This document shows, piece by piece, positions 9,001 to 15,000 of a stretch of 64,000 nt of DNA. This DNA comes from a virus (taxonomy: Duplodnaviria; Heunggongvirae; Uroviricota; Caudoviricetes), in the IMG/VR virus record IMGVR_UViG_2724679237_000005, positions 1 through 64,000 of that record, one strand, 5' to 3'. Numbering within the stretch: position 1 is the first letter of the stretch; every line of letters starts with the position of its first letter. Made by a program: the position numbers.

Positions 9001-12000
9001 CTTTTTTCGTTTCCAATACTCCCACCATAACGCGCCATCATTAGCGCGTTTTTTATTGTCTTTAACTCACTCCAACAACATAAAAATAAGCGCCAAAATA
9101 ACGCCATAGACGCGCTTTTATATTATTGCCAGTACATACCCATTACTTAACACATTAACGCGCTTAAAACGCGTTATATTGCGCTATAGCGCATAGTTAA
9201 TCATTGGCTTTTAGTCTTGCTATGTGATCCGCGTTTAATTGTCGGCGCGGATCGGCATTTTGTTTTGTTCCGTATCCGCTCGCGTATTATGTGCGCGTGA
9301 TTTTTCACATAATCACACCACTTAATCACGTATATGATTACGCTACGAAAGAAATCTGGATGTCTCAGGCGACGAAAGTCAGCATAATTTTCCCCGCTCA
9401 CCTGTCCGACAACCGCTGGTTGGATTCCACCAGCTTCCCGATGTTTTTTCTACATAAAGGCGAATGCAGCCGTTTCCCGAAAAAATCCTGGCCGTTTCCC
9501 GTCGGCTCATGAATACGTTCCTCGCCGTCTCTGAAAATTTCCCTGCGGCAGCTGGTGGCTATAGAGAAAGGGCCGTTTCTGGCCCTCTTCTCAGTTACAC
9601 GCCATCAAGGATGTGGATGCGGTTGCTTGCGTATACATTCAGCATAAAGTTAGCGCAAAACAGTTTCCATGTATCAACGCCAGCGGTATACGTAATGTTT
9701 TTGCATTTAATCGCATTGTTGGCGATCCGCATCCCCTGCGATACTGCTTCATCGTCGGAAAATTTGAACGACGATTGAGTTTTAATCCAGACAGAAATCT
9801 GCGTAGCGAACTCAATCAGCTTGGACTGGCAGAATCGCCCGGAGTGCACCGGAAAGACGAACGTTCCGAATCCAGAATTTACCACATACGCTTTCTCAAA
9901 TACCCGCGAGTAACGACGATTGCCAATGATGTCGCGTGCAATAATGCATTTTTCTTGTGCTGACAGTTCTACCGTCTCATTGTCGCGCCATGCACCAAGT
10001 ACTCGTTTTTCAATGTCAGAGAACGTTACAGCGATATTGCCATGTGCGGGTGCGTTTACAGTAGCGATAAAATTCATGATTAATTCCTTATCGTAAATAA
10101 CAAATTGTTTTCTTGTTGGTGTTAATTATCGTTGTACGAATAAGGCGTCAAAGTGGAAAGTTGCGGTAGCCGGACGGGAACAGGTGGGTTTGTCGGTTGC
10201 CTGGAGGTAAGAGGTTGGTGTTTTTAGCCTGCGGGAAACAGGATGGTCATTTAAGGCCACCAATGCTGATGGCCTTAATAATTATCGACCGATTACGCTA
10301 AGGATCTTTTCCTCAACTGATTTGTTGTTGCGACTAAACTGCCTTGCGTATCTGATGACAGAAGAGGCGTTTTGCTTTCTGACCATCTCGGCTCTTTCCT
10401 TCAGGCGTTTCTTGAAATCGCCCATATTTACCACCAGGCGCAGAAGGTCAGTCTGTTATTGTGAAAGTCGTGGTTCCTGATCAGGTCTTCCACAAGTTTT
10501 TTCAGCTTATCCACGTCATGCCAGTAACCTTCGTCGTACTCCTGACTGCCGAAGAAAAAACCTTCCCGAGTAGGCAAGTACTCTTCGCAATTGCTTTCGT
10601 TTATGTGCATCAAATGAGCTTTCAGAAGGCAAATGTCATTCATCGTTAATTCTAAAAGCTCACAATTTTCGACTTCACCTACGTTGCGCTCCATCCACCC
10701 AACGAGCGCATTGAACTTACGGAAGTAAGCAACCTGCTTTCTGGATGCCTCGTTATTCAGATCGTTTTTAGGCTGTGTCTCGATATAGATATCAAGTCCC
10801 ATGATGGTTTCCTTATTAAGTTGCTTCAGTGAAATCATTTTCACAAATCAGATAAGGCAGAAAACAAATTGTTATCGGGCATAATAAAATGGCGCGGTTT
10901 GCGCGCCATTTAAAGAGGATTAAGCGAATACGCTTTCAGGGATTAAGGTGTCGGCAGGAATGCCAGAGGTAATGCGCAGACCGTACTGGCCAATCCAGGT
11001 GGTGCTGGTGTTCAGGCTGGAGGCGAATACGGTGTTAACCATATTCATCATGGTTTCAAACACCTCTTCATCAACCTGGCGGAAGTAGTTCTCGATTTTC
11101 AGCAGCAGCGGGTCAGTTGCATCGAGAATGGACTGGTATTGAGTCGCGTACTCGCCGCCGGAGGCATCACCTTTACGCACGATCGTACTGGCCTGGACTT
11201 CGGCACCAGTTTCGGTGTTGTACGTAACAACGGTGATTTTTGCCACATTCTTACCTTCGGCAGTTTCAGAGGCATAGTAAACATCAACTGTCAGTTTTTC
11301 GCGTTTAACGGTCATTTCACTCTCCGTAGCGTATTGGTTATTTTTATATTCTATGATCGTAAGTATGTACTTACAATACAAAAAGCCCCGTAAGGATGGC
11401 GGGGCTGTCGTACTGTCGACTAATTACCACTTGCACATTATCAGGCTATTGCCATCACTGATGCTCTCTGAATTTCTTGCTGGGCCACGCGGTTAACTTC
11501 CATCAAAGCCAGTTCGAGCTGATGTTCCGGCCACATTCTTTGAAATGCCACCCAGCCTTTTCCACGCTGGCGACGAACATTCATTACATAACGAGTAAAG
11601 GTGTTTTTATCGAAAGACACCGCTGTTTCACGGAACAGACGAATAGAGGTTCCATTGGCAACGATGTCCAGCAAAGTTAATTGAGCAACCAGTGCAGGCT
11701 TCTCTTTTCTCTTCTGGTCTTTGTCCAGACCAAGAACCAATGATTTTTTCATCACAACTCCGTAAACAACTTGTTTTCTCAATGGCGTAAATAATACCAG
11801 TAAGAAAACGGCTACAAAGCATATTGATCAGGTGCATAAGCGATACGCAGGTTCTTCCCTGCGGCTACAGATTAAGTTAAGCCAGCATTGCTGGCTTTGA
11901 TTGGTTTACGCGAATACCTCAAGAAACTCCTGAACGTCCCAATGCTGGACAAGGTGAAGATAGACCTTAGAAATCACGTCATTCTCGCTATCGCATGTGA

Positions 12001-15000
12001 AGTAGTACTTCTGGCTGCGGTTGTATGTGTCCACACAAAATTCGCTCATATCCATAAAGTCAGCATCATCACCCAGGTCGCTAATCATCAAAGCAGGTGC
12101 ATCATCACGAGTCATCAGCTCCAGCACCCATCTTGAATTAATCAGAGTGGAAGACCAACCTTCCAGCTCATAAAACTGGTCAAACTCTTTTTGAGTCAAT
12201 TTCTTAATTTGGTTGATGTCGATATGTGCAAACATAAAGCAATCCTTAAACAAGATGTTTTCTTAATGGTGTTATTATCGCAATAACGCACAGGCGAAAA
12301 AAGGATTTTATTCCGGTGAATGTGGTTTTGGCAGTGAGTTTTCAGGTTCAGTACAGAGTACACTTTTTACATTATTCTGATTTAGTGGCCGAAGATGGCT
12401 GGTGGGCAGAATAATCATCTCCCCGAAAACCTACTGAAATCGATTGTGACCCGTTGGCTGTCTGGCACAATTACGCTGTAACTGGGCATTCAGAGGGAAT
12501 CCAGCGGTAAGTAGGTTCGCCTTCACGTGAGCGCCTCTCTTCTTCCCGAACATTGCAGGTGGCCAGCCGCAACTCTCCCTCTCGCTATACCGGTACGCCG
12601 CCGTTCCTGAACCGGCATCGAGCCTTTTCCCGAAATCCACACAGGCAACTCGACCGTTTCCCTGAAAATCCCCAGCCGTTCCCCGAAGGCAACCCAGCCG
12701 TTTCTGTAGCGGGATGCAGCCTTTTCCCTGTATGGACCGAAGGCTGACCGTAGGAGTGTTACGGGGGATAAAATCAGGAGTTGAATAAATACGAAAAAGG
12801 AGGCGACACCCCTCCTTCCCTCCCCACTTATACATACCTTGCTTCTTCGCTATACATGTTGTGTTTTCTTCGTGTTTTATCTGTCTCAACCTCTCTATAG
12901 GCGTTAATGCTTACTCCTTCCAGAAACTTCTATACGGCGACTATTTCTGTTGGTGAATTGGGTGTGTTGTTTTCTCTGTCGGTGTATGTGGTTTCGTTCG
13001 TTTTGCGGTGGTTCTTCTATGGGGTGTTCTCGTCGTTTTGGTGATTGTTCTTCTCCGTGTATGGAGTAATGGCAGGTGGGCGATTCCTTTCGTTATTGTG
13101 TTTGAGTTGTTTGTCTGGAGTGCGTGAAGGGCTTTTGTAGTTATTCGTGTATTGGGTAATGGCGTTTCCCGTGATTGTTATGTTTCGTGTCTTTTGGGAT
13201 TGAGAGAAACCTTGCGGTTACAGGCTTCGTTGGGGTTTCAGCGGTTCAGGTGTTTCTTCGCTGTTTGGGTAATGGCGTGTCGTGGGTATCGCGCGTATGA
13301 ATGTTTTCGGATTGCCTGTGAAAGTTAGGTTGGTTGTCCGGTAGCCTGGGGAGAAGAGGTGGGTCTTTTCGGTAGCCTGCCATAAAGAGGTTGGTTGTTT
13401 TGGGTAATGGCATATGTGTTATTTAGTTGTTTTGTTATGCCTGAAAATAAGTTGTTTATATGGTTGTGTAACGCAACGGGAGCGATTTTGAGCGTGTGTT
13501 TTTGTTGGTAGTGTGTTGAGTCGTCTGTAGTGAAAATTGGACGCTGTGGAGCTGTCTGCTGCGTAGGATTACGAGTATAAGAAGTGATGTGTGAAAACGT
13601 CAATTTTTTAGACCAAATCGGGTGAAGGCGTTGACGTTTCGTTGATCTGTTATTCAGTTGTTTTCTTATTGGTATAAATAACTATAACCTATTGATATTT
13701 AAGGATGTGATTGCGGGTATGGAGGGAGGGTAGTGGCGATCAACGGATTCTTATAGAAAAGAATCAAATTGTGACCGCCATTATCAACGGTTTGGTTAGA
13801 TGAGATGGTCTAATTCATCATCTATCATGGCTTTGACGCTGGAGTCATTCACTCCATATTTATTTATGAGCTGTTTCAGCTCTGGCGAAAACTGAAGGTA
13901 GATATCGTGAGCGTTTTTCACTGTAGGTTCAACGCCACGCATTTCAAGCGCCTTTAGTAGATATGAGTCTTCTTTAAGCATAAATTCTCCGTTATCTAGT
14001 ATGAAGCGATTGCCGGATTACCATTGCCAGCACTCAAGCCCTTCAACGACCGGTGCGCCACAATCAAAATGTACAGAGTCAAAGCCTACATCAAGTACTT
14101 TCTGAATGTTCGCAATCGCGCCCTCGGATATACCATATCGACGCAACTCATCTTTCCAGTCATCGTCCTGTAACCCGGCGTGGACAATGCAACCGTACTC
14201 AATTTGTGAAACCCAATCCAGCTCATTGCTTGCGATCATGAATCGGCGAGCATCTTCCTCTGATGTATGAGATGAGCTGATCAATGCCACCTGGTAGGCT
14301 TGGGTAATGTTCAACATTTCAACCACTCCAAAACAAGTTGTTTTCTTATGTGGTTTATTATCTCCATCAACAAAAGGCAGAAAACAAATTGTTTTAGGTA
14401 CTGTGTAAATCAGAAGGGATTGTGTCTATATGAAAATGCCCGGCGTGTTGCCGGGCATTGCGAAGAGAGGTTGTTTAATTACTTAACCTGGTGACCAGGT
14501 TTAGCACCAGCATCCGGGCTTAACAGGAAGATATCTTTCCCGCCGGGGCCAGCAGCCATCACCATGCCTTCAGAGATACCGAAGCGCATTTTACGCGGAG
14601 CCAGGTTAGCCACCATAATGGTGTGACGACCAATCAGTGCCTGTGGATCTGGATAAGCGGAACGGATGCCTGAGAAGACATTACGCTTTTCACCACCGAG
14701 ATCCAGCGTCAGGCGAAGCAGTTTGTCAGAACCTTCGACAAACTCCGCGTTTTCAATCAGCGCCACACGCAGGTCAACTTTGGCGAAGTCGTCAAAGGTG
14801 ATGGTTTCCTGAATCGGGTCGTCAGCCAGTGGGCCAGTTACCGGTGCAGCTGTGGCTTTCACTTCTTCTTTGGATGCTTCCACCAGTGCTTCCACCTGTT
14901 TCATATCGATACGGTTATACAGTGCCTTGAACGGATTCACTTTATGGCCCAGCAGCGGTTGCTGGATACCATCCCAGGTCAGTTCTGTATTCAGGAATGC

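What the first reader, a model, noticed from the sequence alone, without database searches (positions are those of the whole stretch)
9431..12736. Two arrays of CCGTTTCCCGAA-like direct repeats (9431-9548 and 12597-12736)
The same roughly 15-bp motif is reiterated 3-4 times near 9470 and about 6 times near 12650 at 20-30 bp spacing, both in noncoding DNA. Tandem direct repeats with helical-turn spacing are typical of cooperative binding sites (iterons, centromere-like sites, enhancer-like arrays).
Basis: seen in the sequence. Interest (0 to 1): 0.5.

Follow-up and report, generated by a model that had tools for sequence, protein, structure and literature searches.

The report
Phased protein-binding repeat arrays in phage-plasmid
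Two clusters of a short, one-directional DNA motif, spaced two helical turns apart, are real and conserved in hundreds of SSU5/pHCM2-like phage-plasmids; they look like docking sites for one of the element's own DNA-binding proteins, but they are not the known plasmid replication repeats, and which protein binds them and why is still open.

Summary
The window is an SSU5/pHCM2-like phage-plasmid, 97-98% identical to pECOH89 and phage Cyrano. Array A (9431-9581) has two perfect and three degenerate units. Array B (12597-12733) has six units plus two outliers. All lie on the + strand, with core (A/T)GCC(G/T)TTTCCC and core spacing 22, 31, 22, 22, 22 bp.

Single boxes occur at chance frequency, also in 100 kb of E. 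coli K-12 chromosome. Clusters of four or five occur only here. Both arrays keep their position in SSU5, Klebsiella pJN2-26, pMT1 (array A only), 76 IMG/VR loci and about 713 plasmids, and a TTTCCC core survives in very distant relatives.

They are not the RepA iterons, which read TATGCTGYCAGCGGT at 45.2-47.0 kb. They lie in unannotated DNA behind terminators, and they bracket a variable cassette of small genes.

My best reading (about 0.3) is phased sites for the neighbouring winged-helix protein (7817-8476), acting as a RepA-independent, iteron-like replication or maintenance locus. The main rival (about 0.22) is an orphan centromere for the distant type Ib ParA/RHH pair. No binding or function was shown. 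This is an ordinary kind of element, uncharacterised in this family.

The parts
9431..9443 (+). Array A, degenerate outer unit CAGCTTCCCGATG
   Evidence: Sequence read. It overlaps the inverted Chi at 9427-9434.
9466..9483 (+). Array A unit 1, GCAGCCGTTTCCCGAAAA (perfect core)
   Evidence: Nearly invariant in 17 diverse relatives.
9488..9505 (+). Array A unit 2, CTGGCCGTTTCCCGTCGG (perfect core, 22 bp after unit 1)
   Evidence: Conserved.
9521..9548 (+). Array A unit 3 (CGCCGTCTCTGAAAA; GGCCGTTTCTGAAAA in relatives) plus half unit TTTCCCTGCGG
   Evidence: TTCCCTGCGG is invariant or nearly so in the 17-sequence alignment.
9562..9591 (.). Hairpin GGGCC-GTTTCT-GGCCC that ends the minus-strand gene 9595-10077. 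It contains one more GCCGTTTC box and is followed on the minus strand by TTTCTCT.
   Evidence: Sequence read. Hairpin conserved in relatives. Not listed by the terminator scan, so its role as a terminator is inferred.
12418..12432 (+). Outlying degenerate unit TCTCCCCGAAAACCT, left of array B
   Evidence: The block CCCGAAAACC is conserved in part of the relatives.
12538..12552 (+). Outlying degenerate unit TCTTCTTCCCGAACA
12597..12733 (+). Array B: six units with cores at 12600, 12622, 12653, 12675, 12697 and 12719 (spacing 22, 31, 22, 22, 22 bp)
   Evidence: Orthologous arrays of 2-6 units in 76 IMG/VR loci, SSU5 and pJN2-26. Matched in 713 plasmids.
10226..10242 (-). Isolated inverted copy CCTGTTTCCCGCAGGCT in an intergenic spacer of the cassette
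   Evidence: (I20). Present in pECOH89 and pCPF6. Significance unknown.
9301..9317 (+). Tandem DnaA-box-like pair TTTTTCACA-TAATCACA, about 150 bp left of array A
   Evidence: TTCACATAWYCACA occurs only here and at the RepA origin (45118) in the window, against 0.14 expected; the pattern was derived post hoc. TTCACATAATCACA is conserved in most relatives, including pMT1, and absent in the Klebsiella type.
9427..9434 (-). Chi (GCTGGTGG on the minus strand), left flank of array A
9551..9558 (+). Chi, right flank of array A. With 9427 it forms a 12-nt inverted repeat around the array.
   Evidence: (I25). Conserved in most relatives.
12794..12820 (-). Intrinsic terminator on the minus strand, just upstream (in the minus sense) of array B
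   Evidence: The hairpin and T-tract block is conserved.
12830..13700 (.). About 900 bp of noncoding DNA whose + strand is G+T-rich and A-poor, abutting array B. It carries its own repeats (TGGGTAATGGC, three copies).
   Evidence: GC skew up to +0.52 and AT skew down to -0.57. The skew is conserved in 15 of 16 relatives examined and seen by eye in L087 and L091. Repeats. The minus-strand RNA is weakly folded (z = -0.6).
7817..8476 (+). Gene for a 219-aa protein (phrog_1513) with a C-terminal winged helix. This is the candidate binder.
9595..12236 (-). Variable cassette of five small genes of unknown function, each with its own promoter, bracketed by the arrays
   Evidence: The distance between the arrays is about 1.5-4.5 kb in relatives.

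Best explanation
The two arrays are cis-acting DNA sites. Several copies of one element-encoded DNA-binding protein sit side by side on one face of the helix, each on an asymmetric box (A/T)GCC(G/T)TTTCCC, with boxes two (sometimes three) helical turns apart.

The most likely binder is the winged-helix protein encoded 1 kb upstream (7817-8476). A single winged helix reading one major groove plus a wing fits an 11-bp non-palindromic box.

I propose that the pair works like the iteron clusters of iteron-type replicons, but independently of the plasmid initiator RepA. Array A lies in an origin-like setting, about 150 bp from a tandem DnaA-box-like pair. It would be the primary complex. Array B, 3.1 kb away and next to a 900-bp strand-skewed zone, would be a second cluster that pairs with it or titrates the protein. 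P1 incA and P4 crr play that role in their systems. Together they would serve replication (for example the lytic origin) or copy and maintenance control.

Shown: the arrays, their phasing, their conservation, their uniqueness in the genome, and their difference from the RepA iterons.

Inferred: that a protein binds them, which protein it is, and every functional step.
For: - Phasing: 22-bp phased direct repeats.
- Footprint: cores are better conserved than spacers.
- Conservation: the arrays are kept in about 713 plasmids and 76 viral contigs, while the genes between them change.
- Distant relatives: a TTTCCC core persists in L087, L089 and L091, where the winged-helix protein is 54%, 31% and 33% identical. 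The T-Q-x-x-Q residues of its recognition helix are among the 19 invariant columns.
- Proximity: the winged-helix gene is the nearest conserved gene for a predicted DNA-binding fold, and it directly adjoins the array in L089.
- Origin-like context: the tandem DnaA-box-like 14-mer occurs only here and at the RepA origin.
- Uniqueness: these are the most repeat-dense noncoding sites in the 111.7-kb pECOH89 genome after the RepA iterons.
- Insulation: on the minus strand each array follows a terminator or hairpin, and four plus-strand terminator-like hairpins precede array A. That fits a DNA site that must be kept free of transcription.
Against: - No binding data exist.
- The winged-helix protein shows no detectable similarity to RepA (hhalign probability 0.06%) or to any solved initiator. 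It has one winged helix where the classical Rep proteins have two. Its fold matches are generic.
- There is no clear AT-rich unwinding element and no GATC cluster next to array A; GC is 45-58% from 9400 to 9600.
- In most relatives the DnaA-like boxes match the consensus at only 7 of 9 positions, and they are missing in the Klebsiella type.
- Cumulative skew gives no origin signal.
- In L091 the boxes lie only 7-8 bp apart. That is too tight for simultaneous winged-helix binding and fits a ribbon-helix-helix protein better.
- Synteny in this region is conserved as a whole, so gene proximity is weak evidence.
Confidence: 0.3

Rival explanations
1. Orphan partition centromere. The arrays would be the parS/parC-like sites of the element's type Ib partition pair, a 222-aa ParA and a 117-aa ribbon-helix-helix-like partner. 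That pair is encoded about 40 kb away (pECOH89 33568-34595, outside the window). Partner dimers would coat the arrays, and ParA would segregate the complexes.
For: - ParA carries a deviant Walker A and matches MipZ/CbiA/ParA and NCBIfam ParA_partition.
- The partner has a disordered basic N-terminal tail followed by two helices. Its sequence pattern SRTMS-x-EDE ... TRSDVIRAAI is typical of CopG/Arc-type proteins (own knowledge). It gives a weak hit to the aCcr1 family. Its putative DNA-reading strand is invariant across the family, as is the box.
- No repeat array lies beside the par operon.
- Arrays A and B are the only noncoding arrays in the genome apart from the RepA iterons.
- In L091 the boxes form contiguous 7-8-bp TTTCCCG repeats, the layout known for omega of pSM19035 (own knowledge).
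- Dispersed centromeres remote from the par genes are known in N15 and pSM19035 (own knowledge).
- pMT1 has acquired a P1/P7-type parAB. It has no annotated gene like the small ParA or its partner, and array B was not found at its syntenic position.
Against: - Type Ib centromeres normally lie at the parA promoter, where they also serve autoregulation. Here that promoter carries a different element, the 17-bp palindrome GAAACAAnTTGTTTTC, inside a 100-bp block that is invariant between E. coli, Salmonella and Klebsiella elements. That is the more natural partner site.
- An 11-bp conserved core at 22-bp spacing is unlike known ribbon-helix-helix centromeres, which use 4-9-bp boxes 7-11 bp apart (own knowledge).
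- pMT1 still keeps array A intact.
Confidence: 0.22
2. Architectural or regulatory boundary. Protein bound at the two arrays would pair and loop out the 1.5-4.5-kb cassette of accessory genes. This would resemble long-range operator pairing in lambda (OL-OR), and it would insulate or co-regulate the cassette.
For: - The arrays bracket the variable cassette in every relative examined, whatever its length or content.
- Both arrays have the same orientation.
- Both lie at the ends of transcription units.
Against: - The arrays do not overlap promoters. The nearest promoter-like site (12334-12305) is about 290 bp from array B.
- Each cassette gene already has its own promoter with a different operator-like palindrome.
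- Cargo may simply accumulate between two essential sites.
Confidence: 0.13
3. Packaging recognition site. The arrays would be wrapped by the ring-shaped small terminase (210 aa, phrog_867, just left of the window) to start headful packaging.
For: - Same-orientation, helically phased boxes with A-tracts after the core would suit DNA wrapped around an oligomeric ring.
- The large terminase is of the T4-like headful type (Terminase_6N).
- The box shares CGTTTCC with the lambda cosB R sites (my own recollection of the lambda left end, not a tool result).
Against: - The arrays are 8-12 kb from terS/terL, and two clusters 3 kb apart is not a known pac layout.
- The small terminase gave no Pfam match, Nu1 family included, so the 7-mer match to lambda is probably chance.
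- No deposited phage record starts here.
- The searched literature holds no terminus data for this family.
Confidence: 0.07
4. Extra iterons of the plasmid initiator RepA, acting as an incA-like copy-control or incompatibility locus for the IncFIB(pHCM2)-type replicon.
For: Two clusters of 22-bp-spaced direct repeats is the P1/RepFIB pattern (own knowledge).
Against: - RepA's own iterons read TATGCTGYCAGCGGT. They flank repA at 45235-45340 and 46453-46990, already in an ori-plus-incA layout.
- They share nothing with GCCGTTTCCC.
- The arrays are 33 kb away.
Confidence: 0.02
5. An RNA-level element, for example repeated GGA-containing motifs on the minus-strand transcript that sponge an RNA-binding protein such as CsrA or the element's FljA-like protein.
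For: Read on the minus strand, five of the six array B units contain GGA (CAGGGAAA, CGGGGAAC and similar). An FljA-like gene lies nearby at 7006-7530.
Against: - Both arrays lie just after minus-strand terminator hairpins, and plus-strand terminators precede array A, so they are probably little transcribed.
- The conserved part extends beyond GGA.
- Helical-turn phasing is a property of DNA.
- Rfam finds nothing there.
Confidence: 0.03

Closest known systems
Iteron clusters of P1-type and RepFIB-type replicons (oriR plus incA). This element's own RepA replicon at 45.1-47.0 kb is an example.
   Same: Asymmetric direct repeats, about 22-bp spacing, two clusters in the same orientation a few kb or less apart, and DnaA-box-like sequences next to one cluster.
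   Different: The motif is different. No rep gene lies between or beside the clusters. The candidate binder has one winged helix and no detectable similarity to Rep proteins. There is no obvious AT-rich or GATC-rich unwinding region.
Satellite phage P4 ori and crr (own knowledge)
   Same: Two clusters of the same short initiator-binding repeat, several kb apart, both needed in cis.
   Different: The P4 repeats are octamers bound by the alpha primase-helicase. No such protein is linked to these arrays, and the function here is untested.
Type Ib partition centromeres: parH of TP228, parC1/parC2 of pB171, parS1-3 of pSM19035. Also the dispersed centromeres of phage-plasmid N15. (All own knowledge.)
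   Same: Arrays of short repeats, often in two or more clusters. The element has a conserved small ParA with a ribbon-helix-helix-like partner and no adjacent repeats. N15 and pSM19035 show that centromeres can lie far from the par genes.
   Different: The arrays are 40 kb from the par operon and not at its promoter. Box length and spacing (11 bp, 22 bp) are atypical for ribbon-helix-helix sites, except in the distant relative L091.
Lambda cosB R sites bound by the small terminase gpNu1 (own knowledge)
   Same: They share the heptamer CGTTTCC, and there are several copies near one another.
   Different: The lambda sites include an inverted copy, lie directly beside the terminase genes, and flank an IHF site. 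The terminase here is a headful type with an unrelated small subunit.

Membership tests
Iterons of the element's RepA (IncFIB/pHCM2-type) replicon | Same sequence as the repeats flanking repA | tested here: not met
   The RepA repeats read TATGCTGYCAGCGGT. The arrays read GCCGTTTCCC.
Iterons of the element's RepA (IncFIB/pHCM2-type) replicon | Location next to the rep gene or origin | tested here: not met
   The arrays are at 9.4-12.7 kb. repA is at 45358-46452.
Iteron-type replication origin (generic) | Three or more asymmetric direct repeats at about 22-bp spacing | tested here: met
   Core spacing is 22, 31, 22, 22, 22 bp in array B and 22, 33 bp in array A. 22 bp dominates across relatives.
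Iteron-type replication origin (generic) | Adjacent gene for a Rep-type initiator | tested here: inconclusive
   The neighbouring 219-aa protein has a winged helix but no similarity to RepA or to solved Rep proteins.
Iteron-type replication origin (generic) | DnaA boxes and an AT-rich unwinding element beside the repeats | tested here: inconclusive
   A tandem DnaA-box-like pair lies at 9301-9317. There is no marked AT-rich or GATC-rich stretch next to the array.
Iteron-type replication origin (generic) | Supports initiation of replication | not testable with these tools
   Needs a mini-replicon test or marker-frequency analysis.
Type Ib partition centromere | Array of repeats bound by the small centromere-binding protein | not testable with these tools
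   The arrays exist, but binding by the 117-aa protein is unknown.
Type Ib partition centromere | Location at or beside the parA-parB operon, usually overlapping its promoter | tested here: not met
   The par operon lies at pECOH89 33.5-34.6 kb. Its flanks carry no GCCGTTTCCC array.
Type Ib partition centromere | A cognate ParA plus small DNA-binding partner is present in the element | tested here: met
Terminase recognition site (pac/cosB) | Lies in or next to the small terminase gene | tested here: not met
   terS/terL lie just left of the window start, 8-12 kb away.
Terminase recognition site (pac/cosB) | Coincides with virion DNA ends or the packaging start | not testable with these tools
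   No terminus data were found.
Transposon ends (Mu/Tn7-like multi-site ends) | The two site clusters are in inverted orientation | tested here: not met
   All units of both arrays are on the + strand.
CRISPR array | Near-identical repeats of at least 23 bp with unique spacers of similar length | tested here: not met
   The period is 22 bp, the core is a degenerate 11 bp, and the spacers are orthologously conserved.

The most novel reading that the evidence does not exclude
Array A (with its DnaA-like boxes), array B and the adjoining 900-bp strand-skewed zone together would form the so far unmapped lytic (RepA-independent) origin of SSU5-like phage-plasmids. It would be a bipartite ori/crr-like replicator. 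It would be fired by a new single-winged-helix initiator (phrog_1513). The G-rich/C-rich skewed zone would serve either as an R-loop-prone start region, which would tie in with the element's own RNase HI, or as a Rho-dependent shield.
Probability: 0.15. Interest if true: 0.6.

Novelty: new member of a known kind. Interest (0 to 1): 0.42.

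Why it matters
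SSU5/pHCM2/pSLy3-like phage-plasmids are common in clinical Enterobacterales. The region was found in 246 of 5426 complete E. coli genomes, and relatives include pHCM2 of S. Typhi, pMT1 of Y. pestis and the CTX-M-15 carrier pECOH89. Apart from the RepA iterons, none of their cis-acting sites (centromere, lytic origin, packaging site) was described in the literature I could search.

These arrays are the most prominent conserved noncoding repeats besides the RepA iterons, so they are the first place to look for one of those functions. Knowing which function it is would give a handle on incompatibility, curing and copy-number behaviour of these resistance-carrying elements. It would also assign a role to at least one conserved protein of unknown function.

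Tried and rejected
- An iterative position-weight matrix drifted into noise, so I used fixed patterns instead.
It gave no information.
- The 'third arrays' seen in some loci lie inside coding DNA and are chance clusters.
- phrog_1641 (9595-10077) as the binder: no fold or family hit, and the tblastn check matched it in only one (L087, 28% identity) of four distant relatives.
- A GTTCCCTTT box in the parA leader is not conserved in Klebsiella.
- GCCTA-N3-GCCTA at the parA promoter occurs nowhere else.
- Sigma-54 promoter near array B: the spacing is wrong (read by eye).
- Cumulative GC/TA skew of the whole element is monotonic and follows gene orientation, so it gives no origin signal.
- Rfam finds nothing in 8.5-14.5 kb except a sub-threshold isrK hit at 8985-9054.
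- Similarity of the winged-helix protein to RepA or to PDB sequences: none.
- Literature searches for iterons, centromere, pac or origin in SSU5/pHCM2 elements found no description. One 2026 preprint could not be read.

Full report
**What the window is.** The region 9000-13400 is 97-98% identical to about 110-kb non-mobilizable plasmids of E. coli such as pECOH89, and to Escherichia phages Cyrano, CMS-2020a and PhiR41_1. Parts of it match Klebsiella phage-plasmids and Salmonella phage SSU5. Among 5426 complete E. coli genomes it occurs in 246, always on plasmids. The annotation of pECOH89 shows a siphovirus structural module, a phage replication module and a plasmid replicon. So the window is part of an SSU5/pHCM2-like phage-plasmid. 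All genes around the finding are annotated as hypothetical, and nothing is annotated under the arrays.

**The observation.** Array A has two perfect units at 9466 and 9488, 22 bp apart. It also has a degenerate unit at 9521, a half unit at 9538, a degenerate unit at 9431, and one more box inside the hairpin at 9562-9591. Array B has six units with cores at 12600, 12622, 12653, 12675, 12697 and 12719, plus two degenerate outliers at 12418 and 12538. All are on the + strand. One isolated inverted copy lies at 10226-10242.

Single matches to the core are no commoner than in the E. coli K-12 chromosome. Clusters are another matter. Five same-strand matches occur within 150 bp here. The maximum was 3 in 200 simulations and 2 in 100 kb of K-12. 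Elsewhere in the 111.7-kb pECOH89 genome there is no other cluster. A repeat-density scan ranks array B next after the RepA iterons among noncoding sites; the other high-ranking windows fall in annotated genes, mostly tail genes.

**Conservation.** Both arrays occur at the same places in SSU5 and in Klebsiella pJN2-26. pMT1 of Y. pestis keeps array A; at the syntenic position, the region that should hold array B is replaced from an IS1541 transposase gene onward. Both arrays occur in nearly all of 76 IMG/VR loci whose neighbouring 160-aa protein is 66-99% identical. The array B region matches 713 plasmids from seven genera.

The distance between the arrays ranges from about 1.5 to 4.5 kb, because the small genes between them differ. 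In orthologous alignments the cores are more conserved than the spacers. Unit spacing across distinct arrays peaks sharply at 22 bp, with lesser peaks at 31-34 and 42 bp, that is, whole numbers of helical turns. These counts share ancestry and are not independent.

In three much more distant relatives the arrays persist with a TTTCCC core in other arrangements:
- L087 has boxes 10-25 bp apart.
- L091 has contiguous TTTCCCG repeats 7-8 bp apart.
- L089 has two copies of GGGAAAAC(G/T)TTCCCTTTC.

**What it is not.** The plasmid initiator gene (RepB family, 45358-46452) is flanked by its own repeats, TATGCTGYCAGCGGT. About five lie upstream, next to DnaA boxes and a GATC-rich stretch, and at least twelve lie downstream. 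That replicon is complete and uses a different motif, so the arrays are not RepA iterons. They are not transposon ends, because both arrays have the same orientation. They are not a CRISPR array, nor any Rfam family.

**Setting.** Array A lies where a plus-strand operon meets the long run of minus-strand genes. That operon (3288-8978) encodes a helicase, an FljA-like protein, a winged-helix protein and two small proteins. Four plus-strand terminator-like hairpins lie at 8983-9297. A tandem DnaA-box-like pair follows at 9301-9317. Its 14-mer layout recurs only at the RepA origin (the pattern was chosen after seeing both). Then comes array A, bracketed by two inward-facing Chi sites, and then the hairpin that ends the minus-strand gene 9595-10077.

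Array B lies about 290 bp upstream (in the minus sense) of the nearest cassette promoter-like site. It sits directly after a conserved minus-strand intrinsic terminator at 12794-12820. Beyond that terminator lies about 900 bp of noncoding DNA whose + strand is G+T-rich and A-poor, a property kept in 15 of 16 relatives. Thus both arrays sit in DNA that seems shielded from transcription. This argues for a DNA-level site and against an RNA element or an operator.

**Who might bind.** There are three candidates.

1. The 219-aa protein encoded at 7817-8476 (phrog_1513).
   - Its AlphaFold model (pLDDT 84.5) has an N-terminal helical bundle and a C-terminal winged helix.
   - The family is confined to SSU5-like elements.
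   - T171, Q172 and Q175 at the start of the putative recognition helix are invariant down to 31% identity, in step with the invariant box.
   - The gene stays next to array A in all relatives and adjoins it directly in L089.

2. The 117-aa partner of a small ParA, encoded at pECOH89 33568-34595, outside the window.
   - ParA is clear.
   - The partner has a disordered basic tail and a helix-helix core consistent with a ribbon-helix-helix protein (plus sequence pattern).
   - No repeats adjoin the par operon.
   - However, its promoter lies in a 100-bp block that is invariant across three genera and carries the palindrome GAAACAAnTTGTTTTC. The same palindrome is found at 13 or more other promoter-proximal sites. 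By the autoregulation logic of type Ib systems, that palindrome is a more natural target for this protein.

3. The small terminase.
   - Its gene lies 8-12 kb away.
   - The shared CGTTTCC heptamer with the lambda cosB R sites rests only on my memory of the lambda sequence.

**Weighing.** An 11-bp asymmetric box at 22-bp spacing suits a monomeric winged-helix reading head and resembles classical iterons. The DnaA-like pair adds an origin-like flavour. I therefore rank first the reading 'iteron-like, RepA-independent replication or maintenance locus bound by the winged-helix protein', at about 0.3.

The orphan-centromere reading comes next, at about 0.22. It is helped by the tight TTTCCCG repeats of L091, by elimination, and by the N15 and pSM19035 precedents. 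It is hurt by the distance from the par operon and by the competing palindrome. A looping or insulating role around the cassette (0.13), a packaging site (0.07), an RNA-level role (0.03) and RepA control (0.02) follow. The remainder is left for something I have not thought of. None of these was tested by binding or function.

**Literature.** Searches for iterons, centromere, origin or pac site in SSU5, pHCM2 or phage-plasmid papers found no description of these arrays. The Cyrano paper reports a plasmid copy number of 5.5 and lists genes expressed in lysogeny, but it does not treat cis sites (PMC9928086).

**Verdict.** This is a real, strongly conserved pair of phased binding-site arrays, of an ordinary kind but uncharacterised in this widespread family. 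It is worth a simple wet-lab follow-up: footprinting, incompatibility and stability tests, and marker-frequency analysis.

Noticed in passing
window 10099, 10860, 11762, 12249, 13443, 14329, 14380, 25468, 26179, 26908, 37128, 55249, 61286; also L007 ~4632 (parA promoter) and L001 ~965 and ~995 (upstream of terS): A 17-bp palindrome, GAAAACAAnTTGTTTTC, sits just downstream of -10-like hexamers at many promoters. There are 26 strand-matches against 4 expected. It looks like the operator of a global regulator or a family-specific promoter element. The ribbon-helix-helix partner of ParA is one candidate binder.
   Followed up: partly
window 12830-13700: About 900 bp of noncoding DNA with an extreme strand bias (+ strand G+T-rich and A-poor), conserved as a property in 15 of 16 relatives. 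A minus-strand promoter-like site (13603-13574) and a conserved minus-strand terminator (12794-12820) flank it. The minus-strand RNA would be C/A-rich and nearly unstructured, which makes it an ideal Rho substrate. The plus-strand RNA would be G-rich and R-loop-prone. Its function is unknown.
   Followed up: partly
window 13153, 13266, 13401 (plus a variant at 13066): A second repeat family, TGGGTAATGGC, lies inside the skewed zone. There are three exact copies 113-135 bp apart, and similar copies in the distant relative L087. A 31-bp tandem pair, CGGTAGCCTG...GAGGTGGGT, lies at 13339-13400, with a related copy at 10160-10245.
   Followed up: no
window 8980-9300: A dense run of short GCGC-core palindromes in AT-rich DNA (for example TGCGCTATAGCGCA and AACGCGTT). 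It includes four plus-strand terminator-like hairpins and is conserved in pMT1. This could be a stack of terminators or yet another set of binding sites.
   Followed up: no
window-wide; 9427(-), 9551(+), 12398(+): Chi (GCTGGTGG) occurs 13 times against 1.3 expected. Two copies form an inverted pair around array A, oriented so that RecBCD coming from either side meets Chi before the array. The pair is conserved in most relatives.
   Followed up: partly
window 45100-47000: A complete P1/RepFIB-style plasmid replicon. It has tandem DnaA boxes, a GATC-rich stretch, about five TATGCTGYCAGCGGT iterons, repA (45358-46452), and at least twelve more iterons downstream.
   Followed up: yes
window 9595-12236 and relatives: The genes between the arrays are a variable cassette of small ORFs of unknown function (phrogs 1641, 7971, 2473, 5125, 7645). 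Each has its own promoter of a shared 55-nt design, which probably favours shuffling by recombination.
   Followed up: partly
window 13796-13981 (-): A 61-aa ORF gives a weak, sub-threshold match to the T7 gp5.9 RecBCD inhibitor (E = 0.006 over 17 residues).
   Followed up: no
window 308-3223 (-): Two paralogous ParB N-terminal-domain proteins, an ABC-type ATPase and a 296-aa protein head the operon that continues into terS/terL. This arrangement is conserved in all relatives, including pMT1. The role is unknown, and it is not a classical ParAB pair.
   Followed up: no
window 14479-17770 and 7006-7530: The element carries metG (methionyl-tRNA synthetase), apbC and an FljA-like 'repressor of phase-1 flagellin' (Pfam E = 5e-81). 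These are host-like cargo genes.
   Followed up: no
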